Origin: a virus
Taxonomy: Duplodnaviria; Heunggongvirae; Uroviricota; Caudoviricetes; Peduoviridae
Virus record (IMG/VR): IMGVR_UViG_2585427767_000007
DNA length: 34,558 nt
Strand: one strand, 5' to 3'
Under the pieces are notes generated by a model. It had not been told where the DNA came from. It ran no database searches and worked only from the letters and a program-made list of their open reading frames with translations. This document shows, piece after piece, positions 3,238 through 34,558 of the stretch (position 1 is its first letter; the number at the start of each line of letters is the position of its first letter). A program made the position numbers and the translations under genes.

Positions 3238-3512
3238 GTATTCGTATTGAAATTGGCGAACGTTATGTCGTTACCAGTGACAGCTTTCAGTTTATTCTCC
3301 ACGAGAAAAAGAGAGCGGAAAGCGGTAAAAACGCCGGTCAGGAATGGCTGGCGGTGGTTGGTTATTATCCGAAATTAAGCCAGCTCGTTTCCGGCCTGAT
3401 GCATCACGATATTCTGACCGGAAGCGCAAAATCTTTTGCCGATTTAAACACGCAGGTTGAGCAGCTCAGCAAGCGTTGTTCAGAGGCGTTCTCCAGAGGA
3501 GCGTCTGAATGA
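3234..3512 (+). CDS. Hypothetical early protein (92 aa)
   Basis: ATG 3234 with GGAGAAC upstream; stop overlaps the start of the next gene. Confidence 0.6.
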   Translation: MSIRIEIGERYVVTSDSFQFILHEKKRAESGKNAGQEWLAVVGYYPKLSQLVSGLMHHDILTGSAKSFADLNTQVEQLSKRCSEAFSRGASE

Positions 3513-4516
3513 TTACTGATGCTCGTTGCCATACTGAAAATACCATCAATGTTATTTTTGTTTCAGGTGGAAAGGACAGCCTTGCTCAGTGGCTTGTCGC
3601 TATTGAAGAAAATGTACCCATATTGCCGGTTTTTGCTGATACGGGACATGAACATCCACAGACAATGAAATATCTGGATTATCTGGAAAAACGGCTTGGC
3701 CCAATTAAAAGGGTCAGGGCTGATTTTTCCTGCCGGATTGAATCAAAGCGCAAGTTTATCCAGACCAAATGGCCTGATTTGTTGGTTAACGATTGTGGAA
3801 TGTCGGAAGAAGAAGCGCACCAGCGCATCAGTTGTGCGCTGGAAATTCTCAAACCAACGGGTATCCCGTTTCTTGATTTGTGTCTGTGGAAGGGGCGTTT
3901 CCCATCAACCAAAGCCAGATTTTGCACATTTGAACTGAAACATGAACCCGTGCGTTCTCAGGTAATCCTGCCTTTACTCAATGAATTTGAGGAAGTGATT
4001 AGCTGGCAGGGAGTGCGTGCTCAGGAATCGCCATCACGCGCAGCTTTACCTGTCTGGGAAGAGGATGCAGACAACACCCCCGGATTGCATGTATATCGCC
4101 CGATTTTGCACTGGAAGCATGAAGATGTATTTGCAATAGCCAGAAGACATGACATTAAGCCAAATCCGTTATATCTGCAGGGGTGTGGCCGTGTTGGTTG
4201 TATGCCATGTATTCATGTCCGTAAATCTGAACTGGCAGAAATTTTTCGCCGGTGGCCGGAGGAAATAAAGCGGGTTGCTGAATGGGAACGACTGGTTGCG
4301 TCGTGCTCCCGTCGGGGAAATTCCACTTTTTTCCCATCCACACATGATCCGTTACGCGCAGAACGTCGTATTGAGGTTGTAACAGTCGAGGCATACGGAA
4401 TTGAAACCTACCATGACTGGACAATGACAACGCGTGGGGGTACTCAGTTTGATTTACTGGCTTCGGCGAATGATAAAGCCGTTTGCAGTAGTGTCTATGC
4501 CGGTGTATGTGAATGA
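3509..4516 (+). CDS. PAPS-reductase-like PP-loop protein (phosphoadenosine phosphosulfate reductase family)
   Basis: N-terminal VIFVSGGKDS PP-loop (SGGxDS) motif and C-terminal cysteine cluster (GCGRVGCMPC). Translationally coupled to the downstream gpA gene (ATGA overlap at 4513-4516). Confidence 0.75.
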   Translation: MITDARCHTENTINVIFVSGGKDSLAQWLVAIEENVPILPVFADTGHEHPQTMKYLDYLEKRLGPIKRVRADFSCRIESKRKFIQTKWPDLLVNDCGMSEEEAHQRISCALEILKPTGIPFLDLCLWKGRFPSTKARFCTFELKHEPVRSQVILPLLNEFEEVISWQGVRAQESPSRAALPVWEEDADNTPGLHVYRPILHWKHEDVFAIARRHDIKPNPLYLQGCGRVGCMPCIHVRKSELAEIFRRWPEEIKRVAEWERLVASCSRRGNSTFFPSTHDPLRAERRIEVVTVEAYGIETYHDWTMTTRGGTQFDLLASANDKAVCSSVYAGVCE

Positions 4517-6804
4517 GTCATTCTTTCCAGGAGCAATACACCTGCGTACCTCCGTCTGCGTTTGCCGCAGGCACCGGTAAGGCGTTTACCGGTGCTTATG
4601 CATGGAATACGCCACGCGAGGCTGTCGGGCGCGAAAGACCCCTTACACGTGACGAGATGCGTCAGGTGCAAGGTGTTTTATCCACGATTAACCGCCTGCC
4701 TTACTTTTTGCGCTCGCTGTTTACTTCACGTTATGACTACATACGGCGCAATAAAAGCCCGCTACACGGGTTTTATTTCCTCACATCCACTTTTCAGCGT
4801 CGTTTATGGCCGCGCATTGAGCGTGTGAATCAGCGCCATGAAATGAACACCGACGCGTCGTTACTGTTTCTGGCAGAGCGTGACCACTATGCGCGCCTGC
4901 CGGGAATGAATGACAAGGAGCTGAAAAAGTTTGCTGCCCGTATCTCATCGCAGCTTTTCATGATGTATGAGGAACTCAGCGATGCCTGGGTGGATGCGCA
5001 TGGCGAAAAAGAATCGCTGTTTACGGATGAGGCGCAGGCTCACCTCTATGGTCATGTTGCTGGCGCTGCACGTGCTTTCAATGTTTCCCCTCTCTACTGG
5101 AAAAAATACCGTAAAGGGCAGATGACCACGAGGCAGGCATATTCTGCCATTGCCCGTCTGTTTAACGATGAGTGGTGGATTAGTCAGCTTAAAGGCCAGC
5201 GTATGCGCTGGCATGAGGCGTTACTGATTGCTGTCGGGGAGGTCAATAAAGACCGTTCTCCTTATGCCAGTAAACATGCCATTCGTGATGTGCGTGCACG
5301 CCGCCAGGCAAATCTGGAGTTTCTTAAATCGTGTGACCTTGAAAACAGGGAAACCGGCGAGCGCATCGACCTTATCAGTAAGGTGATGGGCAGTATTTCT
5401 AATCCTGAAATTCGCCGGATGGAGCTGATGAACACCATTGCCGGTATTGAGCGTTACGCTGCAGCAGAGGGTGATGTGGGGATGTTTATCACGCTGACCG
5501 CGCCGTCAAAGTATCACCCGACACGTCAGGTCGGAAAAGGCGAAAGTAAAACCGTCCAGCTAAATCACGGCTGGAACGATGAGGCATTTAATCCAAAGGA
5601 TGCGCAGCGTTATCTCTGCCGTATCTGGAGCCTGATGCGCACGGCATTCAAGGATAATGATTTACAGGTCTACGGTTTGCGTGTCGTCGAGCCACACCAC
5701 GACGGAACGCCGCACTGGCATATGATGCTTTTTTGTAATCCGCGCCAGCGTAACCAGATTATTGAAATCATGCGTCGCTATGCGCTCAAAGAGGATGGCG
5801 ACGAAAGAGGAGCCGCGCGAAACCGTTTTCAGGCAAAACACCTTAACCGGGGCGGTGCTGCGGGGTATATCGCGAAATACATCTCAAAAAACATCGACGG
5901 CTATGCACTGGATGGTCAGCTCGATAACGATACCGGCAGACCTCTGAAAGATACTGCCGCGGCTGTTACTGCATGGGCGTCAACGTGGCGCATCCCGCAA
6001 TTTAAAACGGTTGGTCTGCCGACAATGGGGGCTTACCGTGAACTACGCAAATTGCCGCGCGGCGTCAGCATTGCTGATGAGTTTGACGAGCGCGTCGAGG
6101 CTGCACGCGCCGCCGCAGACAGTGGTGATTTTGCGTTGTATATCAGCGCGCAGGGTGGGGCAAATGTCCCGCGCGATTGTCAGACTGTCAGGGTTGCCCG
6201 TAGCCCGTCGGATGAAGTTAACGAGTACGAGGAAGAAGTCGAGAGAGTGGTCGGCATTTACGCGCCGCATCTCGGCGCGCGTCATATTCATATCACCAGA
6301 ACGACGGACTGGCGCATTGTTCCGAAAGTTCCGGTCGTTGAGCCTTTGACTTTAAAAAGCGGCATCGCCGCGCCTCGGAGTCCTGTCAATAACTGTGGAA
6401 AACTCACCGGTGGTGATACTTCGTTACCGGCTCCCACACCTTCAGAGCACGCCGCAGCAGTGCTTAATCTGGTTGATGACGGTGTTATCGAATGGAATGA
6501 CCAGGAGGTCGTGAAGGCGCTAAGGGGCGCATTAAAACACGGACTGAGAACACCAAATCGTCAGCAAAGAGCCGGAAGCCCGTTAAAACCGCATGAAATA
6601 GCGCCATCGGCCAGAATGACCCGGTCGGAACGAATGCAAATTACCCGTATCCGCGTTGACCTTGCTCAGAACGGTATCAGGCCGCAGCGATGGGTGCTTG
6701 AGGCGCTGGCGCGTGGCGCGACCGTAAATTATGACGGGAAAAAATTCACGTATCCGGTCGCTGATGAGTGGCCGGGATTCTCAACAGTAATGGAGTGGAA
6801 ATGA
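4513..6804 (+). CDS. A: Rolling-circle replication initiation endonuclease gpA
   Basis: 763-aa ORF. HUH motif (PHWHMMLF) and downstream tyrosine pair region (YIAKYISKNIDGY) characteristic of P2 gpA-type relaxase/initiators. Size close to remembered P2 gpA. Confidence 0.9.
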   Translation: MSHSFQEQYTCVPPSAFAAGTGKAFTGAYAWNTPREAVGRERPLTRDEMRQVQGVLSTINRLPYFLRSLFTSRYDYIRRNKSPLHGFYFLTSTFQRRLWPRIERVNQRHEMNTDASLLFLAERDHYARLPGMNDKELKKFAARISSQLFMMYEELSDAWVDAHGEKESLFTDEAQAHLYGHVAGAARAFNVSPLYWKKYRKGQMTTRQAYSAIARLFNDEWWISQLKGQRMRWHEALLIAVGEVNKDRSPYASKHAIRDVRARRQANLEFLKSCDLENRETGERIDLISKVMGSISNPEIRRMELMNTIAGIERYAAAEGDVGMFITLTAPSKYHPTRQVGKGESKTVQLNHGWNDEAFNPKDAQRYLCRIWSLMRTAFKDNDLQVYGLRVVEPHHDGTPHWHMMLFCNPRQRNQIIEIMRRYALKEDGDERGAARNRFQAKHLNRGGAAGYIAKYISKNIDGYALDGQLDNDTGRPLKDTAAAVTAWASTWRIPQFKTVGLPTMGAYRELRKLPRGVSIADEFDERVEAARAAADSGDFALYISAQGGANVPRDCQTVRVARSPSDEVNEYEEEVERVVGIYAPHLGARHIHITRTTDWRIVPKVPVVEPLTLKSGIAAPRSPVNNCGKLTGGDTSLPAPTPSEHAAAVLNLVDDGVIEWNDQEVVKALRGALKHGLRTPNRQQRAGSPLKPHEIAPSARMTRSERMQITRIRVDLAQNGIRPQRWVLEALARGATVNYDGKKFTYPVADEWPGFSTVMEWK

Positions 6805-7043: not shown

Positions 7044-7329
7044 AAATGTATGCGGTATGTATGGAAAACCGCACCATAACGAGAAAAATATCCAGTATGA
7101 ATCTGCTTAGATTAATAGATCGCAGAAGAGAGAAGAGGTATTGAGCCATGATGCCAATTTGTGAGATACCGAAGTGTTATGACAAAGATGCTTTTAATGT
7201 TACATTCCGTCATTACTCTTATTAATCATCTATTTCAATAGATTAGGATTAATCTGGCTATGTCATTGAAGATGCTCGATGTCTCGATATTTCTTAGCTA
7301 AAATAGGAGGCACTAAGGGAGAGGATGTT

Positions 7330-8388
7330 ATGTCTAAAATTTATGCTATTGACCTTTTTTGTGGTGCAGGTGGATTAACCCATGGTTTGATACAAGCAGG
7401 GATTGGTGTCATTGCTGGTATTGATTTAGATCCAGATTGCAGATGGGCGTATGAGCACAACAACAAAGCTAAATATATAAATTCAGATATTTGTGATGTA
7501 ACAGGTCAAGACCTTATGCGCTTGTGGCCAGAACAGGGAATAAGACTTCTTGCTGGTTGCGCCCCATGTCAGCCTTTTTCAAGTTATCGAAAAGGCAAGA
7601 TTGAATCTGCTGACGGCAAATGGAAACTCTTAGGTGAATTTGGACGGCTAGTCAAAGAATCTTCACCAGACTTGATAACCATGGAAAACGTACCAAGGTT
7701 ACAAAAGCATAAAATTTTCTTGGATTTTGTTAAAGACCTTAAGAAAGGTGGGTATAAGGTCTGGTATGGCGTCGTTGACTGTCAACAATATGGTGTGCCT
7801 CAGAAAAGGCAGCGATTAGTTTTACTGGCATCCAAGATCAGTGATGTTGTGTTGATTCCTCCAACACATTCAGAAGATAACTACGTAACAGTGAAAGATG
7901 CTATTTCTCATTTGCCAGAGATAGATTCAGGGCAAGCTGATGAGAAAGATCCATTACACGTTGCTCAGGGAATGAGCCAATTAAATCTCGAAAGGATTCG
8001 TCAATCAAAACCAGGTGGAACATGGAAGGATTGGGATCCTGAGTTGGTTGCTGCGTGCCATAAGAAAAGTAGTGGCAAAACTTACACAAGTGTATATGGA
8101 CGGATGAGATGGGATGAACCAGCTCCTACAATGACAACCCTATGTTTTGGTTTTGGTAATGGACGTTTTGGGCATCCTCAACAGGATAGGGCCATTTCTT
8201 TACGTGAGGCAGCTATCTTTCAAAGTTTTCCGGAGAACTATGTTTTTTCTGAACCAGGTGCAAAGATCACATTTGCAACAGTTGGTCGCTTGATTGGTAA
8301 TGCCGTTCCGGTAAAACTAGGTGAAGTTGTAGGAAAATCATTTATTAATAGTCTATCTGGGGGTAGTAGGAGAAATGGCGGAGCATAG
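7330..8388 (+). CDS. DNA (cytosine-5)-methyltransferase, Dcm-type
   Basis: Canonical C5-MTase motifs in canonical order: motif I FCGAGG (IDLFCGAGGLTHGL), motif IV PCQPFS (catalytic Cys), motif VI ENV, motif VIII QKRQR, motif X GNAV. ATG 7330 with GGGAGAGG Shine-Dalgarno; the track start at 7279 is a longer upstream extension. Lower GC than the phage backbone. Confidence 0.9.
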   Translation: MSKIYAIDLFCGAGGLTHGLIQAGIGVIAGIDLDPDCRWAYEHNNKAKYINSDICDVTGQDLMRLWPEQGIRLLAGCAPCQPFSSYRKGKIESADGKWKLLGEFGRLVKESSPDLITMENVPRLQKHKIFLDFVKDLKKGGYKVWYGVVDCQQYGVPQKRQRLVLLASKISDVVLIPPTHSEDNYVTVKDAISHLPEIDSGQADEKDPLHVAQGMSQLNLERIRQSKPGGTWKDWDPELVAACHKKSSGKTYTSVYGRMRWDEPAPTMTTLCFGFGNGRFGHPQQDRAISLREAAIFQSFPENYVFSEPGAKITFATVGRLIGNAVPVKLGEVVGKSFINSLSGGSRRNGGA

Positions 8389-10372
8389 CGAAGTTTTATC
8401 GCATGTTGATGAAAAAACACATACTTATGAGATGCTGGTTAGCTTGAGTGTTCTGGGGCATCTGGGGATCAATCTATATAGCAATGTTGCGGCAGTGATT
8501 ACGGAAACAGTAGCTAATGCATGGGATGCAGATGCTACAGAAGTGCATATAAAACTTTCTCCTGACAGAATCACTATTTCGGATAATGGTTTTGGAATGA
8601 CCATTCATGATATGAATTCGAAATATCTAACAGTTGGCTATCAAAAAAGAAATGATAAAAGCCAGCTATTAACTCCCAAGGGACGACTACCCATGGGCAG
8701 AAAAGGTATTGGTAAGTTATCTTTATTTTCTATTGCAAAAACTGTAACGGTTGAATCAATCAAGGATGGAGAACGACATGGTTTAGTTATGGAAGTTCCA
8801 AAAATAGAGCATGCAATCAAAAGTGGGGCTGGTAGATATTATCCAGAACCTTTGGATTCTGCTCAACTTTCTGTGAGTCAAGGAACATTAGTAACATTGC
8901 GTGATCTAAATCGATCTCGCATACCTGCCACTGCAACCGCTTTGCGTAAAAAGTTAGCAAGGCGTTTTTCTGTTATTGGTAGTAATGATTTTAGGGTCTT
9001 CGTTGATGGTGTAGAAGTAACAGCAAAGGAACGTGAGGACCTAAAACATGTTCAGTTCGTATGGGATATTAACTCGGGGGTAGATTTTAAAAAAGAATGT
9101 CCGGGGTTAATAACTGTAACTGACATTTCATCATTTTTGACAGAAAGTCAATTATTTAATCCTGAATGGAGCATTAAAGGGTGGATTGGTAGTATAAAAC
9201 AGCCTAGTCAGTTGAATACACCTGAAGGAAATCTAAATAGCATTGTTGTTTTATCTAGAGGTCGATTGTTTCAAGAGAACATTTTAGATGATATAAACGA
9301 TGGTGGGATATACACAAAGTATCTTACAGGGCAACTTGAGGCAGACTTCCTTGATACAGATGAAGATGAAGATATTGCAACAAGTGATAGACAACGAGTT
9401 GTTGAAGATGACCCTCGTTATCAATATTTGAAATCATTGGTTAAGATTGCCCTGAGAAAGGTTGCTGGTCAATGGAGCTCACTACGAGAAAAGCAAGGAG
9501 CAAAGGAAGCTAAAGAATCGAATCCGGTACTTGCGGAGTGGATCGGTTCATTAAAACCTGCTTCCCGAGGCTATGCAGAAAAAATGATCGCTCAAATTGA
9601 ATCGTTGCCTTTGGAGGATAAACCACAAGAGAAGAAGGAACTCTTTAAGCATGCAATTTTTGCATTTGAGCGCTTGCGTATTAAGGAAATGTCGCAGGAG
9701 CTAGCTGATGCTGTATTTTTTAATGCAGAAAAATTATTGCCATTGCTTGAGAAACAAGACGATTTAGAGGCAACATTATATTATGAGATAGCTAAGAGTC
9801 GTGTAGATGTTATTCAAAGCTTCAAAGGCCTAGTCGATAACGATGAAAAAGAAAAAGTATTGCAACGTTATCTTTTTGAACACCTTTGGTTATTAGACCC
9901 ATCATGGGAAAGAATTGATGGTTCTCCAATAATGGAGTCGCGTGTTAACCAAGAGTGGGACAAGATTGATGCTGGCCTGAGTGAAGAAGAGAAGAAAGGT
10001 CGTATGGATATAAAATATCGCTCATCTGCAGGTAAGCATATTATCATTGAACTTAAGAGAGCTAGCGTATTGACTTCTGTTGCAAATCTAGTCAGTCAGG
10101 GGAATAAGTACAGGCAGGCAGTAATTAAGTGTGCAAAAGCTGTTGACCCGGCCTCAACACCATCAATTGATGTGATTTTTGTCCTTGGTCGAGAGCCATC
10201 AGATTATGCGTTAGACCCATCTTATACTAACCTTCAGCTACAGTCAGTGAATGGTCGGATTGTTTATTATGATGGGCTAATTAATAGCGCACAGAGCTCG
10301 TATAGAGAATATACAGAGAGGCAGGCTACTGTTGCAAGGATTGCTGAAATCGTTAAAAAACTAGATGACTAG
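8375..10372 (+). CDS. GHKL/HATPase_c-type ATPase (665 aa) with C-terminal PD-(D/E)xK-like nuclease motif; candidate restriction/defence effector
   Basis: Bergerat-fold motifs near the N-terminus: N-box ETVANAWDA (ExxxNAxDA), G1 box DNGFGM, G2 box GRKGIGKLS. C-terminal region has D...ExK pattern (GRMDIKY...HIIIELKR). ATG 8375 overlaps the MTase stop by 14 nt with AGGAG upstream. Low GC. Confidence 0.8.
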   Translation: MAEHSEVLSHVDEKTHTYEMLVSLSVLGHLGINLYSNVAAVITETVANAWDADATEVHIKLSPDRITISDNGFGMTIHDMNSKYLTVGYQKRNDKSQLLTPKGRLPMGRKGIGKLSLFSIAKTVTVESIKDGERHGLVMEVPKIEHAIKSGAGRYYPEPLDSAQLSVSQGTLVTLRDLNRSRIPATATALRKKLARRFSVIGSNDFRVFVDGVEVTAKEREDLKHVQFVWDINSGVDFKKECPGLITVTDISSFLTESQLFNPEWSIKGWIGSIKQPSQLNTPEGNLNSIVVLSRGRLFQENILDDINDGGIYTKYLTGQLEADFLDTDEDEDIATSDRQRVVEDDPRYQYLKSLVKIALRKVAGQWSSLREKQGAKEAKESNPVLAEWIGSLKPASRGYAEKMIAQIESLPLEDKPQEKKELFKHAIFAFERLRIKEMSQELADAVFFNAEKLLPLLEKQDDLEATLYYEIAKSRVDVIQSFKGLVDNDEKEKVLQRYLFEHLWLLDPSWERIDGSPIMESRVNQEWDKIDAGLSEEEKKGRMDIKYRSSAGKHIIIELKRASVLTSVANLVSQGNKYRQAVIKCAKAVDPASTPSIDVIFVLGREPSDYALDPSYTNLQLQSVNGRIVYYDGLINSAQSSYREYTERQATVARIAEIVKKLDD

Positions 10373-25892: not shown

Positions 25893-26486
25893 ATGTTTAC
25901 TAAGCGACGATTAAAAAATATTAACTGGGAGGCAAGTTCAGTGATTCTTGCTATGGTTCTCTTTGTTGGAAATATATTTTATACAAATCATCGTGATGAT
26001 ATAAGCATGGAGGCTGAGAGGGACAGTATCAGAACAATGTTTGCATATGAAATCGCTAATAACCATCGCGCTCTCACTTTTCTTGATAAAACGAGACATA
26101 TTGGCTTTGACGAAAATTCGGAGCATTTTGTTGGCGAGCCTTTTGCCATTAATGTCAAATCATTAGGGGGGCCTCGCTTACAGATTGCATTAAACCAGAC
26201 TGATAAAGTGTTTAAATCCTACTTCAGCGAATTAAGTAAGCTTGGTAAAGAGGATGTTACTCTTCTTATGGACTATTACCATGAGCAAAGCATCCTGCTG
26301 GAGCGTGTAAAATCTACGTTACAGAAGATGAAAAGTGGTAATGATATTAAAGTTGATATTGATGGTTACTTATTAGAAGAACACTTCATGAATGAGCTTA
26401 ATCTTTCTAATATTTTGCTTAAACGCTATAGCCATTTGTTGTCACAATACGCTAAAGAACATAAAACAAAAGATTTACATAATTGA
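25893..26486 (+). CDS. AT-rich moron at the P2 Z/fun locus: 197-aa hypothetical protein with N-terminal membrane anchor
   Basis: ATG 25893 with AAGG upstream. Single hydrophobic segment SSVILAMVLFVGNIF near the N-terminus. Markedly lower GC than the flanking tail genes; followed by a strong terminator. Confidence 0.65.
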   Translation: MFTKRRLKNINWEASSVILAMVLFVGNIFYTNHRDDISMEAERDSIRTMFAYEIANNHRALTFLDKTRHIGFDENSEHFVGEPFAINVKSLGGPRLQIALNQTDKVFKSYFSELSKLGKEDVTLLMDYYHEQSILLERVKSTLQKMKSGNDIKVDIDGYLLEEHFMNELNLSNILLKRYSHLLSQYAKEHKTKDLHN

Positions 26487-26695: not shown

Positions 26696-26734
26696 GGGGG
26701 GAATTGCCCCCCCTTTTTTTTTTTTTTTTTTTTT
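26696..26734 (+). terminator. Intrinsic terminator: G6-loop-C7 hairpin followed by a T21 homopolymer
   Basis: GGGGGG-AATTG-CCCCCCC (26696-26713) followed by 21 consecutive T (26714-26734), downstream of the moron ORF and about 80 nt upstream of FI. Confidence 0.6.
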
Positions 26735-26816
26735 CCCCTGACCAGCCAGGTCAAATAGCGTCTCATGCTCTGCACAACAGAAAATAGTTGCACCCATTAA
26801 CCACGGAGTTAAACGG

Positions 26817-28007
26817 ATGAGTGACTATCATCACGGCGTGCAGGTGCTGGAGATTAACGACGGCACCCGCGTCATTTCCACCGTATCCACGGCCATTGTC
26901 GGCATGGTCTGCACGGCCAGCGATGCGGATGCGGAAACCTTCCCCCTCAATAAACCGGTGCTGATTACCAATGTGCAGAGCGCAATTGCAAAGGCCGGTA
27001 AAACAGGCACGCTGGCGGCATCGTTGCAGGCCATCGCTGACCAGTCAAAACCGGTCACCGTTGTCGTGCGTGTGGAAGACGGCACCGGCGAAGACGAAGA
27101 AACGAAGCTCGCGCAGACCGTTTCCAATATCATCGGCACCACCGACGAAAACGGTCAGTACACCGGACTGAAAGCCCTGCTGGCGGCGGAGTCGGTAACC
27201 GGTGTTAAACCGCGTATTCTCGGCGTGCCGGGACTGGATACCAAAGAGGTGGCTGTTGCACTGGCATCTGTCTGTCAGAAGTTGCGCGCTTTCGGGTATA
27301 TCAGCGCATGGGGCTGTAAAACCATTTCCGAGGTGAAAGCCTACCGCCAGAATTTCAGCCAGCGTGAGCTGATGGTCATCTGGCCGGATTTCCTCGCATG
27401 GGATACGGTCACCAGTACCACCGCCACCGCGTATGCCACCGCCCGTGCACTGGGGCTGCGTGCCAAAATCGACCAGGAGCAGGGCTGGCATAAAACGCTG
27501 TCCAATGTCGGGGTGAACGGTGTTACCGGCATCAGCGCCTCTGTATTCTGGGATTTGCAGGAGTCCGGCACTGATGCTGACCTGCTGAACGAGGCAGGCG
27601 TCACAACGCTGGTTCGCCGCGACGGTTTCCGTTTCTGGGGTAACCGTACCTGCTCCGATGACCCACTTTTCCTCTTTGAAAACTACACCCGCACCGCGCA
27701 GGTGCTGGCCGACACGATGGCTGAGGCGCACATGTGGGCGGTGGACAAGCCCATCACCGCAACGCTGATTCGCGACATCGTTGACGGCATCAATGCCAAA
27801 TTCCGTGAGCTGAAAACAAACGGCTATATCGTGGATGCGACCTGCTGGTTCAGCGAAGAATCCAACGATGCGGAAACCCTCAAGGCCGGAAAACTGTATA
27901 TCGACTACGACTATACACCGGTGCCTCCTCTCGAAAACCTGACCCTGCGCCAGCGTATTACCGATAAATACCTGGCAAATCTGGTCACCTCGGTTAACAG
28001 CAATTAA
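26817..28007 (+). CDS. FI: Tail sheath protein gpFI
   Basis: 396 aa; size and position match P2 gpFI. Confidence 0.9.
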   Translation: MSDYHHGVQVLEINDGTRVISTVSTAIVGMVCTASDADAETFPLNKPVLITNVQSAIAKAGKTGTLAASLQAIADQSKPVTVVVRVEDGTGEDEETKLAQTVSNIIGTTDENGQYTGLKALLAAESVTGVKPRILGVPGLDTKEVAVALASVCQKLRAFGYISAWGCKTISEVKAYRQNFSQRELMVIWPDFLAWDTVTSTTATAYATARALGLRAKIDQEQGWHKTLSNVGVNGVTGISASVFWDLQESGTDADLLNEAGVTTLVRRDGFRFWGNRTCSDDPLFLFENYTRTAQVLADTMAEAHMWAVDKPITATLIRDIVDGINAKFRELKTNGYIVDATCWFSEESNDAETLKAGKLYIDYDYTPVPPLENLTLRQRITDKYLANLVTSVNSN

Positions 28008-28019
28008 GGAGCCTGACCG

Positions 28020-28538
28020 ATGGCAATGCCGCGCAAACTCAAGTTAATGAACGTCTTTCTGAACGGCTACAGCTATCAGGGCGTTGCAAAGTCCGTCACG
28101 CTGCCAAAACTGACCCGTAAGCTCGAAAACTATCGCGGTGCGGGGATGAACGGCAGCGCACCGGTAGATCTCGGCCTTGATGACGATGCGCTGTCAATGG
28201 AGTGGTCTCTCGGGGGCTTCCCGGATTCGGTTATCTGGGAGCTTTACGCCGCAACCGGTGTGGATGCCGTGCCGATTCGTTTTGCCGGTTCTTACCAGCG
28301 CGACGATACCGGCGAAACGGTGGCCGTCGAGGTGGTCATGCGTGGACGTCAGAAAGAAATCGACACCGGCGAGGGGAAACAGGGAGAAGACACCGAGTCG
28401 AAAATCTCCGTGGTCTGTACCTATTTCCGGCTGACGATGGACGGTAAGGAGTTGGTCGAAATCGACACCATCAACATGATTGAGAAGGTGAACGGCGTCG
28501 ACCGGCTGGAGCAACACCGCCGAAATATCGGCCTGTGA
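28020..28538 (+). CDS. FII: Tail tube protein gpFII
   Basis: 172 aa; size and position match P2 gpFII. Confidence 0.9.
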   Translation: MAMPRKLKLMNVFLNGYSYQGVAKSVTLPKLTRKLENYRGAGMNGSAPVDLGLDDDALSMEWSLGGFPDSVIWELYAATGVDAVPIRFAGSYQRDDTGETVAVEVVMRGRQKEIDTGEGKQGEDTESKISVVCTYFRLTMDGKELVEIDTINMIEKVNGVDRLEQHRRNIGL

Positions 28539-28594
28539 TTTTCATCCGGTCAGCCTGGCTGACCGGTTAACCCTGATTCAGAAGTGAGAAAACC

Positions 28595-28870
28595 ATGAAC
28601 AAAGAAAATGTGATTACCCTGGACAATCCGGTCAAGCGTGGTGAGCAGGTTATCGAACAGGTCACGCTGATGAAACCCAGTGCGGGGACGCTGCGCGGTG
28701 TCAGTCTGGCTGCGGTTGCAAACTCCGAAGTCGATGCACTGATTAAGGTACTGCCGCGCATGACGGCACCGATGCTGACCGAGCAGGAGGTCGCCGCGCT
28801 GGAACTGCCTGACCTTGTGGCGCTGGCCGGTAAGGTGGTCGGTTTTTTGTCGCCGAACTCGGTGCAGTAA
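28595..28870 (+). CDS. E: Tail assembly chaperone gpE
   Basis: 91 aa directly upstream of the tape-measure gene; matches P2 gpE. Confidence 0.8.
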   Translation: MNKENVITLDNPVKRGEQVIEQVTLMKPSAGTLRGVSLAAVANSEVDALIKVLPRMTAPMLTEQEVAALELPDLVALAGKVVGFLSPNSVQ

Positions 28871-29022
28871 CGTTTCCGAAAAATCTCTCGGTCGATGACC
28901 TGATGGCGGATGTGGCAGTGATATTTCACTGGCCGCCATCAGAACTGTATCCCATGAGCCTGACCGAACTCATCACATGGCGCGAAAAGGCACTCCGGCG
29001 AAGCGGAAACACGAATGAGTAA
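28595..29022 (+). CDS. gpE+E' fusion produced by programmed -1 ribosomal frameshift
   Basis: Slippery heptamer T_TTT_TTG at 28843-28849 near the 3' end of E. The -1 frame from 28849 is open for 57 codons to a TAA at 29020-29022, overlapping the T start; predicted fusion is about 141-142 aa, as remembered for P2 E+E'. Confidence 0.6.
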
Positions 29023-31462
29023 CAATGTAAAATTACAGGTATTGCTCAGGGCTGTTGACCAGGCATCCCGCCCGTTTAAATCCATCCGTACAGCGAGCAG
29101 GTCGCTGTCGGGGGATATCCGGGAAACACAAAAATCACTGCGCGAGCTGAACGGTCACGCATCCCGTATTGAGGGATTCCGCAAGACCAGTGCACAGCTC
29201 GCTGTGACTGGTCATGCACTTGAAAAGGCACGGCAGGAGGCCGAAGCCCTTGCCACACAGTTTAAAAATACCGAACGTCCAACCCGTGCTCAGGCGAAAG
29301 TGCTGGAATCCGCAAAGCGTGCGGCGGAGGACTTACAGGCGAAATATAACCGCCTGACGGATTCTGTTAAACGCCAGCAGCGGGAACTGGCCGCTGTGGG
29401 AATTAATACCCGCAATCTTGCACATGATGAGCAGGGGCTGAAAAACCGTATCAGTGAAACCACCGCACAACTTAACCGTCAGCGCGATGCACTGGCGCGT
29501 GTCAGTGCACAACAGGCAAAACTTAACGCAGTAAAACAGCGTTATCAGGCCGGAAAGGAACTGGCCGGAAATATGGCCTCAGTGGGCGCTGCCGGTGTGG
29601 GGATTGCTGCTGCGGGAACGATGGCCGGAGTTAAGCTGCTGATGCCCGGTTATGAGTTTGCGCAGAAAAACTCAGAATTGCAGGCCGTGCTCGGAGTGGC
29701 AAAAGACTCCGCCGAAATGGCCGCGCTCCGCAAGCAGGCGCGCCAGCTCGGCGATAATACCGCCGCCTCGGCGGATGATGCGGCCGGTGCGCAGATTATC
29801 ATTGCGAAAGCGGGTGGAGATGCTGCGGCTATTCAGGCGGCAACGCCGGTCACGCTGAATATGGCACTGGCGAATCAGCGGTCGATGGAAGAAAACGCGC
29901 AACTGTTACTGGGGACTAAGGCATCCTTTCAACTGTCAAATGATGATGTCAGCCATGTGGGCGACGTGTTGTCGGCAACGATGAATAAGTCGGCGGCTGA
30001 TTTTCAGGGACTCAGTGATGCACTGACTTACCTCGGGCCGGTTGCGAGGACGGCAGGTGTAAGTCTTGAGCAGGCAGCGGCCATGACAGGTGTGCTGCAT
30101 GACAATAACATCAGGGGGTCAATGGCGGGTACGGGTAGCAGTGCCGTTGTCACCCGATTACAGGCACCGACTGGAAAAGCATGGGATGCACTCAAAGAGC
30201 TTGGCGTTAAAACCTCGGACAAAAAGGGAAATATGCGTCCGTTGTTCACCATTCTGAAAGAGATTCAGGCCAGCTTTGATAAACACAAGCTGGGAACGTC
30301 TCAGAAGGGGGAATACCTTAAAACCATTTTTGGTGAGGAAGCCCTGAAATCAGCGAACGTTTTACTGGCAGCGGCAGCAAGCGGAAAACTGGATACGCTG
30401 ACCGCCACGCTGAAAGCCTCGGACGGTAAAACGGAAGAGCTGGTTAAAATCATGCAGGATAACCTCGGCGGTGACTTTAAGGAGTTTCAGTCCGCTTATG
30501 AGGCGGTGGGGACTGACCTGTTTGACCAGCAGGAAGGCACACTGCGTAAGCTCACGCAGACGGCCACAAAGTATGTGTTAAAACTCGACGGCTGGATACA
30601 GAAAAACAAATCACTGGCGTCAACCATTGGCCTCATTGCCGGTGGCGCACTGGCGCTGACTGGTGTCATCGGTGCCATTGGTCTTGTAGCCTGGCCGGTT
30701 ATCACCGGCATCAATGCCATTATCGCGGCAGCAGGCGCAATGGGGGCAATCTTCACGACGGTTGGTAGTGCCGTTATGACGGCCATCGGGGCGATTAGCT
30801 GGCCGGTTGTGGCTGTGGTGGCCGCCATTGTCGCCGGGGCGTTGCTTATCCGTAAATACTGGGAGCCTGTCAGCGCATTCTTCGGCGGTGTGGTTGAAGG
30901 GCTGAAAGCAGCATTTGCGCCGGTGGGGGAACTGTTCACGCCACTTAAGCCGGTGTTTGACTGGCTGGGTGAAAAGTTACAGGCCGCGTGGCAGTGGTTT
31001 AAAAACCTGATTGCCCCGGTTAAAGCCACCCAGGACACCCTGAACCGTTGCCGTGACACGGGCGTCATGTTCGGGCAGGCACTGGCTGACGCGCTGATGC
31101 TGCCGCTTAATGCGTTCAACAAACTGCGCAGCGGAATTGACTGGGTACTGGAAAAACTCGGTGTTATCAACAAAGAGTCAGACACACTTGACCAGACCGT
31201 CGCCAGAACTCAAGCCGCCACGTATGGCAGCGGTGGTTATATTCCGGCGACCAGCTCTTATGCAGGCTATCAGGCTTATCAGCCGGTTACGGCACCGGCT
31301 GGCCGCTCTTATGTGGACCAGAGTAAAAACGAATATCACATCAGCCTGACGGGTGGTACTGCGCCGGGGACACAGCTTGACCGCCAGTTACAGGATGCGC
31401 TCGAAAAATACGAGCGGGATAAACGTGCGCGCGCCCGTGCCAGCATGATGCATGACGGTTAA
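29015..31462 (+). CDS. T: Tail tape-measure protein gpT
   Basis: 815 aa, alanine/glycine-rich with hydrophobic central segment; size identical to remembered P2 gpT. Confidence 0.9.
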   Translation: MSNNVKLQVLLRAVDQASRPFKSIRTASRSLSGDIRETQKSLRELNGHASRIEGFRKTSAQLAVTGHALEKARQEAEALATQFKNTERPTRAQAKVLESAKRAAEDLQAKYNRLTDSVKRQQRELAAVGINTRNLAHDEQGLKNRISETTAQLNRQRDALARVSAQQAKLNAVKQRYQAGKELAGNMASVGAAGVGIAAAGTMAGVKLLMPGYEFAQKNSELQAVLGVAKDSAEMAALRKQARQLGDNTAASADDAAGAQIIIAKAGGDAAAIQAATPVTLNMALANQRSMEENAQLLLGTKASFQLSNDDVSHVGDVLSATMNKSAADFQGLSDALTYLGPVARTAGVSLEQAAAMTGVLHDNNIRGSMAGTGSSAVVTRLQAPTGKAWDALKELGVKTSDKKGNMRPLFTILKEIQASFDKHKLGTSQKGEYLKTIFGEEALKSANVLLAAAASGKLDTLTATLKASDGKTEELVKIMQDNLGGDFKEFQSAYEAVGTDLFDQQEGTLRKLTQTATKYVLKLDGWIQKNKSLASTIGLIAGGALALTGVIGAIGLVAWPVITGINAIIAAAGAMGAIFTTVGSAVMTAIGAISWPVVAVVAAIVAGALLIRKYWEPVSAFFGGVVEGLKAAFAPVGELFTPLKPVFDWLGEKLQAAWQWFKNLIAPVKATQDTLNRCRDTGVMFGQALADALMLPLNAFNKLRSGIDWVLEKLGVINKESDTLDQTVARTQAATYGSGGYIPATSSYAGYQAYQPVTAPAGRSYVDQSKNEYHISLTGGTAPGTQLDRQLQDALEKYERDKRARARASMMHDG

Positions 31463-33612: not shown

Positions 33613-33655
33613 TTTGCTTCCGTTATACTACCGTCAGTTGATAGCGGGAGTATTT

Positions 33656-34558
33656 ATGAATCAATCTTATGGACGGCTGGTCAGTCGGGCGGCGATTGCT
33701 GCGACGGCGATGGCTTCGCTGCTATTGCTGATTAAAATTTTTGCATGGTGGTATACCGGGTCGGTGAGTATTCTCGCCGCGCTGGTGGATTCGCTGGTGG
33801 ATATCGGCGCGTCGTTGACGAATTTACTGGTGGTGCGATATTCCCTGCAACCTGCCGACGATAATCACTCGTTTGGTCACGGTAAAGCTGAGTCCCTCGC
33901 GGCGCTGGCGCAAAGTATGTTTATCTCCGGTTCGGCACTATTCCTGTTTTTGACGGGTATTCAACATCTGGTATCTCCAACACCGATGACAGATCCAGGC
34001 GTCGGGGTTATCGTGACAATTGTGGCGCTAATTTGTACGATTATCCTTGTCTCGTTTCAGCGTTGGGTGGTGCGCCGGACGCAAAGCCAGGCGGTGCGGG
34101 CTGATATGCTACATTACCAGTCTGATGTTATGATGAACGGTGCAATTCTGCTGGCGCTGGGGTTGTCCTGGTACGGCTGGCATCGCGCCGATGCTCTGTT
34201 TGCATTGGGAATCGGCATCTATATTTTATATAGCGCGTTACGCATGGGATATGAGGCGGTACAGTCATTACTGGATCGCGCATTGCCTGATGAAGAACGG
34301 CAAGAAATTATTGATATCGTGACTTCCTGGCCGGGTGTTAGCGGCGCTCACGATCTTCGCACGCGGCAGTCAGGGCCGACCCGCTTTATTCAGATTCATT
34401 TGGAAATGGAAGACTCTCTGCCTTTGGTTCAGGCACATATGGTGGCGGATCAGGTAGAGCAGGCTATTTTACGGCGTTTTCCGGGATCGGATGTGATTAT
34501 CCATCAGGACCCCTGTTCCGTCGTACCCAGGGAGGGTAAACGGTCTATGCTTTCATAA
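33656..34558 (+). CDS. fieF: Host cation-efflux transporter FieF (CDF family, ferrous iron/zinc)
   Basis: 300-aa protein from ATG 33656 (GGGAG Shine-Dalgarno) matches remembered E. coli FieF/YiiP ([36 protein letters not shown]...). Terminal TAA is the last codon of the window. Confidence 0.9.

What the first reader, a model, noticed from the sequence alone, without database searches (positions are those of the whole stretch)
28843..29022. Conserved programmed -1 frameshift site generating the E+E' tail chaperone
The heptamer T_TTT_TTG lies 20 nt before the E stop, and the -1 frame is open for 57 codons from 28849 up to a stop just inside the start of T. This is the tail-assembly chaperone frameshift arrangement conserved across tailed phages, the analogue of lambda G/GT.
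Basis: partly seen in the sequence, partly recalled or inferred. Interest (0 to 1): 0.45.

Follow-up and report, generated by a model that had tools for sequence, protein, structure and literature searches.

The report
Phage P2 E/E+E′ tail-chaperone frameshift
This is the well-known programmed -1 ribosomal frameshift site of a P2-type prophage in E. coli, which makes two tail-assembly proteins from one gene start; both proteins are identical to those of phage P2, so the finding is correct but ordinary.

Summary
TTTTTTG sits at 28843-28849 in phase (T_TTT_TTG) with gene E (28595-28870). The -1 frame runs 57 codons from 28849 to a TAA at 29020-29022, 8 nt inside the tape-measure gene T (ATG 29015). 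One small correction: 18 nt, not 20, separate the heptamer from the E stop.

The window is a P2-type prophage, 97.8% identical to phage P2 here. All 8 nucleotide differences across E-E′ are synonymous. The predicted 142-aa fusion is exactly P2 gpE+E′ (AAD03292.1 / UniProt O64312). The P2 record annotates this site as a -1 translational frameshift that makes an essential tail protein (Christie et al. 2002, read only through citing papers).

I compared 20 sequences: the window, P2 and 18 divergent relatives, down to about 32% E identity. All keep an in-phase X_XXY_YYZ heptamer and a 51-71 codon -1 extension carrying the GpE motif. The T-run is held against synonymous drift. Independent initiation of E′ and transcriptional slippage are poorly supported. 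No conserved RNA structure was found. A Shine-Dalgarno-like element just upstream is largely explained by the encoded amino acids.

Verdict: real, correctly interpreted, already known. Low interest.

The parts
26817..28007 (+). FI, tail sheath gene (context: first gene of the F operon)
   Evidence: Pfam Phage_sheath_1 5.6e-34, Phage_sheath_1C 4.1e-23. Homologous to P2 FI.
28020..28538 (+). FII, tail tube gene, immediately upstream of E
   Evidence: Pfam Phage_tube PF04985 2.3e-60. P2 FII.
28595..28870 (+). Gene E, the zero-frame product gpE (91 aa), a tail assembly chaperone
   Evidence: ORF. Pfam Phage_TAC_7 PF10109 1.5e-12. phrog_103 6.4e-45. 100% identical in protein to P2 gpE.
28843..28849 (+). 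Slippery heptamer T_TTT_TTG, the site of the -1 shift
   Evidence: In phase with E. Same position as the P2 annotated frameshift site. T-run invariant or nearly so in a 20-sequence alignment with 44% mean identity. 14 of 15 Phe-Leu lineages use TTT-TTG although TTG is only 9% of other Leu codons.
28849..29022 (+). E′, the -1 frame extension (57 codons plus TAA), translated only as the C-terminal part of the 142-aa gpE+E′
   Evidence: Open -1 frame. Pfam Phage_P2_GpE PF06528 1.2e-21 on fusion residues 104-139. Fusion is identical to AAD03292.1/O64312.
29015..31462 (+). T, the tape-measure gene. Its ATG overlaps the end of E′ by 8 nt.
   Evidence: 815-aa ORF. Pfam PhageMin_Tail PF10145 2.1e-44. 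P2 gpT.
28828..28841 (+). Shine-Dalgarno-like stretch (CGGTAAGGTGGTCG) complementary to the 16S rRNA 3′ tail. A possible stimulator, unproven.
   Evidence: Duplex -14.0 kcal/mol. Strongest anti-SD site of the E gene in 15 of 20 lineages. A synonymous-recoding null is not rejected: per-lineage P 0.06-1.0, Fisher p 0.057 over 11 lineages and 0.29 over 16.

Best explanation
This is the programmed -1 ribosomal frameshift of a P2-type prophage tail operon (FI-FII-E-E′-T-U-D).

Most ribosomes translate E in the zero frame and stop at 28868-28870, giving the 91-aa gpE. A minority shift while tRNA-Phe (TTT, P site) and tRNA-Leu (TTG, A site) sit on T_TTT_TTG. Both slip back one base and re-pair with TTT TTT. 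Translation resumes at GTC (28849) in the -1 frame and ends at TAA 29020-29022, giving the 142-aa gpE+E′ with the junction ...VVGFL|VAELG....

The two proteins share the gpE domain, which by analogy with lambda gpG coats the tape-measure protein gpT. Only the rare longer form carries the E′ domain, which by analogy with the T part of lambda gpGT recruits the tube protein FII. The fixed slip frequency would therefore set the ratio needed for tail assembly.

Shown here: the anatomy, protein identity with P2, conservation of site and frame, and nucleotide-level constraint on the heptamer.
Taken from the literature: fusion synthesis and essentiality in P2, and an efficiency 2-3 fold above lambda's.
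Inferred: the exact tRNA events and the chaperone roles of the two domains in P2.
For: - Anatomy and phase.
- 97.8% DNA identity to P2, with E, E+E′ and the frameshift site annotated at the homologous place.
- All 8 differences from P2 in 28595-29022 are synonymous. The one in the overlap (28869) is silent in both frames: TAA/TGA stop in E, GTA/GTG Val in E′.
- The fusion is an exact match to AAD03292.1 / NP_046780.1 / O64312.
- Pfam hits in both frames: PF10109 for E and PF06528 for E′, flanked by tube (PF04985) and tape measure (PF10145).
- All 20 compared sequences (100% down to about 32% E identity) have an in-phase X_XXY_YYZ heptamer 13-73 nt before the E stop and a 51-71 codon -1 extension with the ADIAVIFHWPP...WRE motif.
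- The site is TTTTTTG in 14 of the 20. The other six have TTTTTTT, TTTTTTC (two), CCCTTTC, AAATTTT and GGGAAAG. All six remain tandem-slippage motifs.
- Synonymous constraint: 14 of 15 Phe-Leu lineages use TTT-TTG, against TTG at 22 of 239 other Leu codons. Phages at 63-67% GC use TTC for all 4 other Phe codons.
- Literature: PMC3091744, PMC3931495 and PMC5009743, all citing Christie et al. 2002 and Xu et al. 2004.
Against: No experiment was done on this particular prophage. The primary paper (PMC135442) could not be read, so the experimental claims rest on citing papers and the GenBank annotation.

U_UUU_UUG has a 'heterogeneous' A-site codon. In reporter assays, motifs without stimulators reach only about 2-10 times a 0.055% background. 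No conserved stimulator was found, so the reported several-percent efficiency is not mechanistically explained.

The late-promoter region upstream of FI carries an odd homopolymer replacement in this window. Expression of the operon in this particular prophage is therefore not guaranteed.
Confidence: 0.93

Rival explanations
1. E′ is a separate small gene. Ribosomes would initiate at ATG 28903 and make a free 39-aa 'GpE family' protein, as RefSeq/PGAP annotates it, with no frameshift.
For: RefSeq annotates a standalone 39-aa CDS at the equivalent position. That exact 39-aa sequence is recorded on about 1000 contigs. 12 of the 20 compared sequences have Met at that position.
Against: The Met-equivalent codon is not a start codon in 5 of 20 relatives: RSA1 GCC, KlebST16 GTT, unc2F1 ATT, Mh2256AP1 ATT, AhyVDH1 GAG. 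Four of these have no ATG, GTG or TTG anywhere between the heptamer and the motif. Amino-acid conservation in the -1 frame ([LIF]P....[VI][DE]D) extends upstream of the ATG. The -1 frame stays open from the heptamer onward in all 20. No SD-like sequence precedes 28903, and the literature says P2 E′ lacks a ribosome binding site.
Confidence: 0.03
2. The fusion would arise by transcriptional slippage. RNA polymerase adds one extra U on the T6 run, perhaps helped by the adjacent upstream hairpin, so a fraction of mRNAs encode E and E′ in one frame (junction ...GFF|VAELG...).
For: A weak hairpin at 28822-28843 (-10.5 kcal/mol, z -2.15) directly abuts the T-run in terminator-like geometry. Some relatives have T7 (KlebST11, Zymomonas; Smp131). 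A fused ...GFFVAELG... protein exists in one E. coli assembly (QTN08932.1), although that is most simply a genomic or sequencing indel.
Against: Relatives with non-homopolymeric heptamers at the same place (CCCTTTC, AAATTTT, GGGAAAG) cannot use polymerase slippage but do fit tandem tRNA slippage. The phase of the heptamer relative to the E frame is kept in 20 of 20, which transcriptional slippage does not require. The hairpin is not conserved: 68.0% of cells paired against a shuffled mean of 67.8%, and RNAalifold finds 0 pairs. From general knowledge, T6 is shorter than the runs that give productive slippage. The P2 record and literature call it translational.
Confidence: 0.03
3. It is a chance co-occurrence of a T-run and an open alternative frame, with no function.
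For: TTTTTTG is common in the window: 15 copies against 9.7 expected. The generic pattern occurs in 4 of 96 mechanical ORFs.
Against: Family hits in both frames, conservation in 20 of 20 divergent sequences, synonymous constraint, purely synonymous divergence from P2, and published experiments on the identical P2 proteins.
Confidence: 0.01

Closest known systems
Bacteriophage P2 gpE / gpE+E′ (Christie et al. 2002, J Bacteriol 184:6522; GenBank AF063097; UniProt TAP_BPP2 and TAPFS_BPP2/O64312)
   Same: Everything that could be compared matches: the same heptamer at the same position, the same 91- and 142-aa proteins (100% identical), the same 37-nt back-overlap into E and 8-nt overlap with T, and the same FI-FII-E-E′-T gene order.
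   Different: There are 8 synonymous nucleotide changes, including E stop TAA instead of TGA. This copy is a chromosomal prophage with different cargo genes and an altered sequence in the PF promoter region.
Bacteriophage lambda gpG / gpGT (Levin et al. 1993; Xu et al. 2004, 2013, 2014)
   Same: Two overlapping ORFs lie between the major tail gene and the tape-measure gene. [quoted passage not shown] The fixed ratio is needed for tail assembly, and neither protein is in the virion.
   Different: There is no detectable sequence similarity (stated, not tested here). From memory, lambda's heptamer is G_GGA_AAG. Lambda has a non-contractile tail. P2-type efficiency is reported as 2-3 fold higher.
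E/E+E′ of other P2-like phages (Burkholderia KS5/KS14/KL3, Stenotrophomonas Smp131, PSP3, phiCTX and others)
   Same: T6G or T7G heptamer in phase, a -1 E′ extension ending at the tape-measure start, and no downstream hairpin.
   Different: 31-76% protein identity to the window's E. Some use other heptamers: TTTTTTC, TTTTTTT, CCCTTTC, AAATTTT, GGGAAAG.
E. coli dnaX and IS911/IS3 -1 frameshift signals
   Same: Tandem slippage on an X_XXY_YYZ heptamer in E. coli.
   Different: Those sites use A_AAA_AAG with demonstrated stimulators: an upstream SD 6-17 nt away and/or a downstream hairpin or pseudoknot. They reach high efficiency. Here no conserved structure was found, and the SD-like stretch is not separable from coding constraint.

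Membership tests
P2-type E/E+E′ frameshifted tail assembly chaperone (the conserved tail-chaperone frameshift of Xu et al. 2004) | Two overlapping ORFs located between the major tail (tube) gene and the tape-measure gene | tested here: met
   FII tube 28020-28538, E 28595-28870, E′ to 29022, T 29015-31462.
P2-type E/E+E′ frameshifted tail assembly chaperone | Slippery X_XXY_YYZ heptamer in phase with the upstream ORF, near its 3′ end | tested here: met
   T_TTT_TTG at 28843-28849, 18 nt before the E stop.
P2-type E/E+E′ frameshifted tail assembly chaperone | -1 frame open from the heptamer to a stop at or near the tape-measure start, with no start codon or RBS of its own required | tested here: met
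   57 codons, stop 8 nt inside T. 4 of 20 relatives have no possible start codon in the extension before the motif.
P2-type E/E+E′ frameshifted tail assembly chaperone | Sequence membership of both parts: gpE (PF10109 Phage_TAC_7) and E′ (PF06528 Phage_P2_GpE) | tested here: met
   1.5e-12 (47.8 bits, cut-off 25) and 1.2e-21 (76.3 bits, cut-off 23). Exact identity with the P2 proteins.
P2-type E/E+E′ frameshifted tail assembly chaperone | Frameshift site and -1 extension conserved among homologues, beyond what protein coding requires | tested here: met
   20 of 20 compared sequences. TTT-TTG in 14 of 15 Phe-Leu lineages against a 9% TTG background.
P2-type E/E+E′ frameshifted tail assembly chaperone | The fusion protein is actually made by a translational -1 shift | not testable with these tools
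   Reported for P2 by Christie 2002 as cited and in the GenBank annotation. The primary paper is not held.
P2-type E/E+E′ frameshifted tail assembly chaperone | Both products are essential for tail assembly | not testable with these tools
   The P2 record notes 'essential tail protein' for both E and E+E′.
Stimulated -1 PRF signals (dnaX / IS3 type) | Conserved downstream hairpin or pseudoknot 5-9 nt after the heptamer | tested here: not met
   The local fold of 28850-28940 has z -2.69, but its first hairpin starts 2 nt after the heptamer and the strong one about 52 nt away. RNAalifold on 16 relatives gives 0 pairs.
Stimulated -1 PRF signals (dnaX / IS3 type) | Upstream Shine-Dalgarno-like stimulator maintained by selection | tested here: inconclusive
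   A strong anti-SD complement is present (-14.0 kcal/mol) and is the top site of the gene in 15 of 20 lineages. It is largely predicted by the amino-acid sequence: Fisher p 0.057 over 11 lineages and 0.29 over 16.

The most novel reading that the evidence does not exclude
The Shine-Dalgarno-like stretch at 28828-28841 (AAGGTGGTC, up to 8 contiguous pairs with the 16S rRNA 3′ tail) ends 2 nt before the heptamer. It could be a previously unrecognised upstream stimulator of the P2-family frameshift. That would explain how a 'stimulator-free' U_UUU_UUG reaches an efficiency reported as 2-3 fold above lambda's. The conserved [K/E]-V-[V/I] residues of gpE would then be co-selected for this RNA role.
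Probability: 0.12. Interest if true: 0.3.

Novelty: already known. Interest (0 to 1): 0.07.

Why it matters
Scientifically this adds nothing new. The site was characterised in phage P2 in 2002, and the proteins here are identical to P2's.

Its practical value is for annotation. The same 501-nt region occurs in 1583 of 5426 complete E. coli genomes. In the RefSeq record examined, E′ is a free-standing 39-aa 'GpE family' CDS rather than the frameshift fusion, and that exact 39-aa sequence is recorded on about 1000 contigs. The real 142-aa product is therefore often missing from proteomes and mass-spectrometry search databases.

The site is also a clean positive control for frameshift-finding pipelines.

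Tried and rejected
1. Primary paper: reading Christie et al. 2002 (PMC135442) failed because it is not held. I used citing papers instead.
2. Downstream stimulatory RNA structure: the single-sequence fold is mildly stable (z -2.69). The longer context is not (z -1.17), and there is no consensus structure in 16 relatives. Rejected.
3. Upstream hairpin 28822-28843 abutting the T-run, which is terminator-like and a possible aid to transcriptional slippage: no conservation or covariation. Rejected as a family feature.
4. Upstream SD-like stimulator: it looked striking against a within-gene background, but the synonymous-recoding null shows it mostly follows from the amino-acid sequence. Inconclusive.
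5. Independent initiation of E′ at ATG 28903: rejected on comparative grounds.
6. Solved structures of E+E′: none found in the PDB by sequence. I did not run structure prediction, because it would not bear on the finding.
7. Generic chance test: the pattern alone is not rare, so I did not rely on it.
8. Tooling note: loci fetched by protein hits were not exported to the script machine. I worked around this through alignment files.

Full report
**Observation.** Gene E occupies 28595-28870 (91 aa). TTTTTTG lies at 28843-28849, and 28843 is the third base of a GGT codon, so the zero-frame reading is GG|T TTT TTG, a canonical X_XXY_YYZ heptamer. Read from 28849, the -1 frame has 57 sense codons and ends at TAA 29020-29022. 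The 815-aa downstream gene starts at ATG 29015, so the overlap is 8 nt. Its '20 nt before the E stop' is approximate: 18 nt lie between the heptamer and the stop codon.

**Is it more than chance?** Not from the pattern alone. TTTTTTG occurs 15 times in the window against 9.7 +/- 3.0 expected. An in-phase slippery heptamer within 90 nt of a stop, with a -1 extension of at least 40 codons, occurs in 4 of 96 mechanical ORFs of at least 80 aa. The other three are spurious ORFs lying inside real genes. The case therefore rests on context and comparison.

**Identity.** The stretch 28000-29600 is 97.8% identical to bacteriophage P2 and to dozens of Peduovirus genomes. The P2 record (AF063097) annotates FI, FII, E, E+E′ ('shares amino terminus with gpE; -1 frameshift; essential tail protein'), a 'site of -1 translational frameshift', and T at the homologous positions.
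- Only 8 nucleotides differ from P2 across 28595-29022, and all are synonymous.
- The one inside the E/E′ overlap (28869) is silent in both frames: TAA/TGA stop in E and GTA/GTG Val in E′.
- The fusion I derived (...VVGFL|VAELG..., 142 aa) is an exact match to AAD03292.1 / NP_046780.1 / UniProt O64312 'Tail assembly protein E′'. The 91-aa product matches TAP_BPP2.
- Pfam places the zero-frame part in Phage_TAC_7 (PF10109, 1.5e-12) and the -1 part in Phage_P2_GpE (PF06528, 1.2e-21). The neighbours are the tail tube (PF04985, 2.3e-60) and the tape measure (PF10145, 2.1e-44). PHROGs agrees.

**Comparative test.** tblastn with gpE finds homologues in 408 phage records. I fetched P2 and 18 divergent records, with E identity from 76% down to about 32%, and aligned them with the window.
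- All 20 sequences have an in-phase X_XXY_YYZ heptamer 13-73 nt before the E stop. All have a -1 frame open for 51-71 codons that encodes the conserved ...[VI][DE]D.(M)AD[IV]A.IFHWPP...EL..WRE.A motif.
- The heptamer is TTTTTTG in 14 of them. The others have TTTTTTT, TTTTTTC (two), CCCTTTC, AAATTTT and GGGAAAG.
- In an alignment with 44% mean column identity, the T-run is one of the few invariant nucleotide blocks.
- Synonymous constraint is clear. 14 of 15 lineages with Phe-Leu at the site use exactly TTT-TTG, although TTG is only 22 of 239 (9%) other Leu codons in the same genes. The phages at 63-67% GC use TTC for all 4 of their other Phe codons.

**Rival 1, independent initiation of E′.** RefSeq annotates E′ as a stand-alone 39-aa 'GpE family phage tail protein' starting at the equivalent of ATG 28903. 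That exact peptide is recorded on about 1000 contigs. Several points count against this reading:
- The Met-equivalent is not a start codon in 5 of 20 relatives.
- Four of those have no ATG, GTG or TTG at all between the heptamer and the motif.
- -1 frame conservation extends upstream of that ATG.
- The literature notes that P2 E′ lacks a ribosome binding site.

**Rival 2, transcriptional slippage.** A weak hairpin (28822-28843, -10.5 kcal/mol, z -2.15) abuts the T-run in terminator-like geometry. It is not conserved: 68.0% of cells are paired against a shuffled mean of 67.8%, and there are no consensus pairs. Relatives with non-homopolymeric heptamers in the same phase fit tRNA slippage, not polymerase slippage. 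A ...GFF|VAELG... fused protein exists in a single E. coli assembly. That is most simply an indel.

**Stimulators.** There is no conserved downstream structure, in line with what is said of P2.

A Shine-Dalgarno-like stretch (28828-28841, -14.0 kcal/mol with the 16S 3′ tail) ends 2 nt before the heptamer. It is the strongest anti-SD site of the E gene in 15 of 20 lineages. When the eight upstream codons are redrawn synonymously from each gene's own codon usage, similar strengths are common. Per-lineage P values run from 0.06 to 1.0, and Fisher's p is 0.057 over 11 lineages and 0.29 over 16. The signal therefore cannot be separated from the conserved [K/E]-V-[V/I] residues.

This remains the only mildly novel possibility. 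P2-type frameshifting is said to be 2-3 fold more efficient than lambda's roughly 1:30, whereas stimulator-free heptamers in reporters give only 2-10 times a 0.055% background, and UUG is a 'heterogeneous', weaker A-site codon.

**Mechanism.** The steps below are the model; only the anatomy, the protein identity with P2 and the conservation were shown here.
1. With tRNA-Phe on TTT (P site) and tRNA-Leu on TTG (A site), both slip one base 5′ onto TTT TTT.
2. Decoding resumes at GTC 28849.
3. Most ribosomes do not shift and make gpE. A minority make gpE+E′.
4. By analogy with lambda G/GT, the shared domain binds the tape measure gpT and the E′ domain recruits tube protein FII. Neither ends up in the virion.

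Fusion synthesis, essentiality and efficiency come from the literature on the identical P2 proteins. The tRNA details and the domain roles in P2 are inferred.

**Comparison and novelty.** This is a member of the P2 E/E+E′ system, and at protein level an identical copy of it. Every defining feature that sequence analysis can test is met. It works like lambda G/GT without being sequence-related to it. It differs from dnaX/IS3-type signals in lacking a demonstrable stimulator. It is already known.

**Context.** The window is a P2-type prophage in E. coli. The 501-nt core occurs in 1583 of 5426 complete E. coli genomes, with several 100% matches. The tail operon reading frames are intact.

**Verdict.** The finding is correct and correctly interpreted. 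It is ordinary and of low interest. Its main value is as a reminder that automated annotation splits E′ off as a separate ORF.

Noticed in passing
window 26696-26738: The sequence GGGGGGAATTGCCCCCCC, then T21, then CCCC lies just upstream of FI. The closest E. coli prophages have GGGCGAATTGCCCGCC-TTTTCTTTATCTGTTGTTTCATCCAC at the same place, only 1 nt shorter. That makes about 14 clustered substitutions, all towards homopolymers. The tract overlaps the upstream part of the annotated P2 PF late-promoter activator-binding site, and PF drives the operon containing E/E′. It is either a sequencing or assembly artefact, or a real change that may weaken late activation. Unresolved.
   Followed up: partly
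window 25893-26486: An AT-rich 197-aa orphan ORF sits between the tail-fibre assembly gene and FI, the position of P2 Z/fun. It has no Pfam or PADLOC hit and a full-length match to phrog_3829 of unknown function. The region is present at 80% coverage or more in 202 of 5426 E. coli genomes and is annotated 'hypothetical protein'. This is the kind of slot where P2-like phages are said to carry anti-phage cargo (from memory, not tested).
   Followed up: partly
window 7279-10372: Cargo pair in the early region just downstream of the 763-aa ORF (4513-6804), which I take from memory of the P2 map to be gene A and the tin/old slot. One gene is a C-5 cytosine DNA methylase (369 aa, PF00145 1.3e-55; PADLOC DrmMII/MTase_II). 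It overlaps a 665-aa GHKL-ATPase protein that matches PADLOC 'Type II restriction enzyme' models (1.3e-94). This is probably a restriction-modification module.
   Followed up: partly
window 3509-4516: A 335-aa PAPS-reductase-domain protein (PF01507 2.8e-34) with weaker PADLOC similarity to SspD, BrxP and DndC. It lies immediately upstream of, and overlapping the start of, the 763-aa ORF at 4513-6804.
   Followed up: partly
locus L020 20344-20463 (equivalent to window 28903-29022); also L002, L004, L008-L010, L012-L014, L019: RefSeq/PGAP and many phage submissions annotate E′ as an independent 39-45 aa 'GpE family' CDS, not as the frameshift fusion. Only a few records (P2, PSP3, Milagro, L-413C, Wphi) carry the joined CDS. 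In L020 the tape-measure gene is also flagged as a pseudogene with an internal stop.
   Followed up: partly
protein P0016 (QTN08932.1), one E. coli assembly: A 142-aa E+E′ with the junction ...GFF|VAELG... is annotated as a single ordinary ORF in one genome. This implies a T7 run there, either a real +1 T mutation that fuses the frames or a homopolymer sequencing error.
   Followed up: no
window 33614-34558: A truncated ORF with Cation_efflux and ZT_dimer domains (1.5e-50, 1.6e-26) looks like a host fieF-type gene. The right prophage/host junction therefore lies between the end of the D gene (33119) and about 33600.
   Followed up: no
locus L018 (Mannheimia phage 2256AP1) and L015/L016: In some distant relatives the homologous T-run has decayed (GATTTAATG, CCTTTCTTG, AATTTTATG) and a different in-phase heptamer serves instead. 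GGGAAAG lies about 40 nt further downstream in the Mannheimia phage. CCCTTTC and AAATTTT lie one codon upstream in L015 and L016. The site has moved while the two-protein arrangement was kept.
   Followed up: partly
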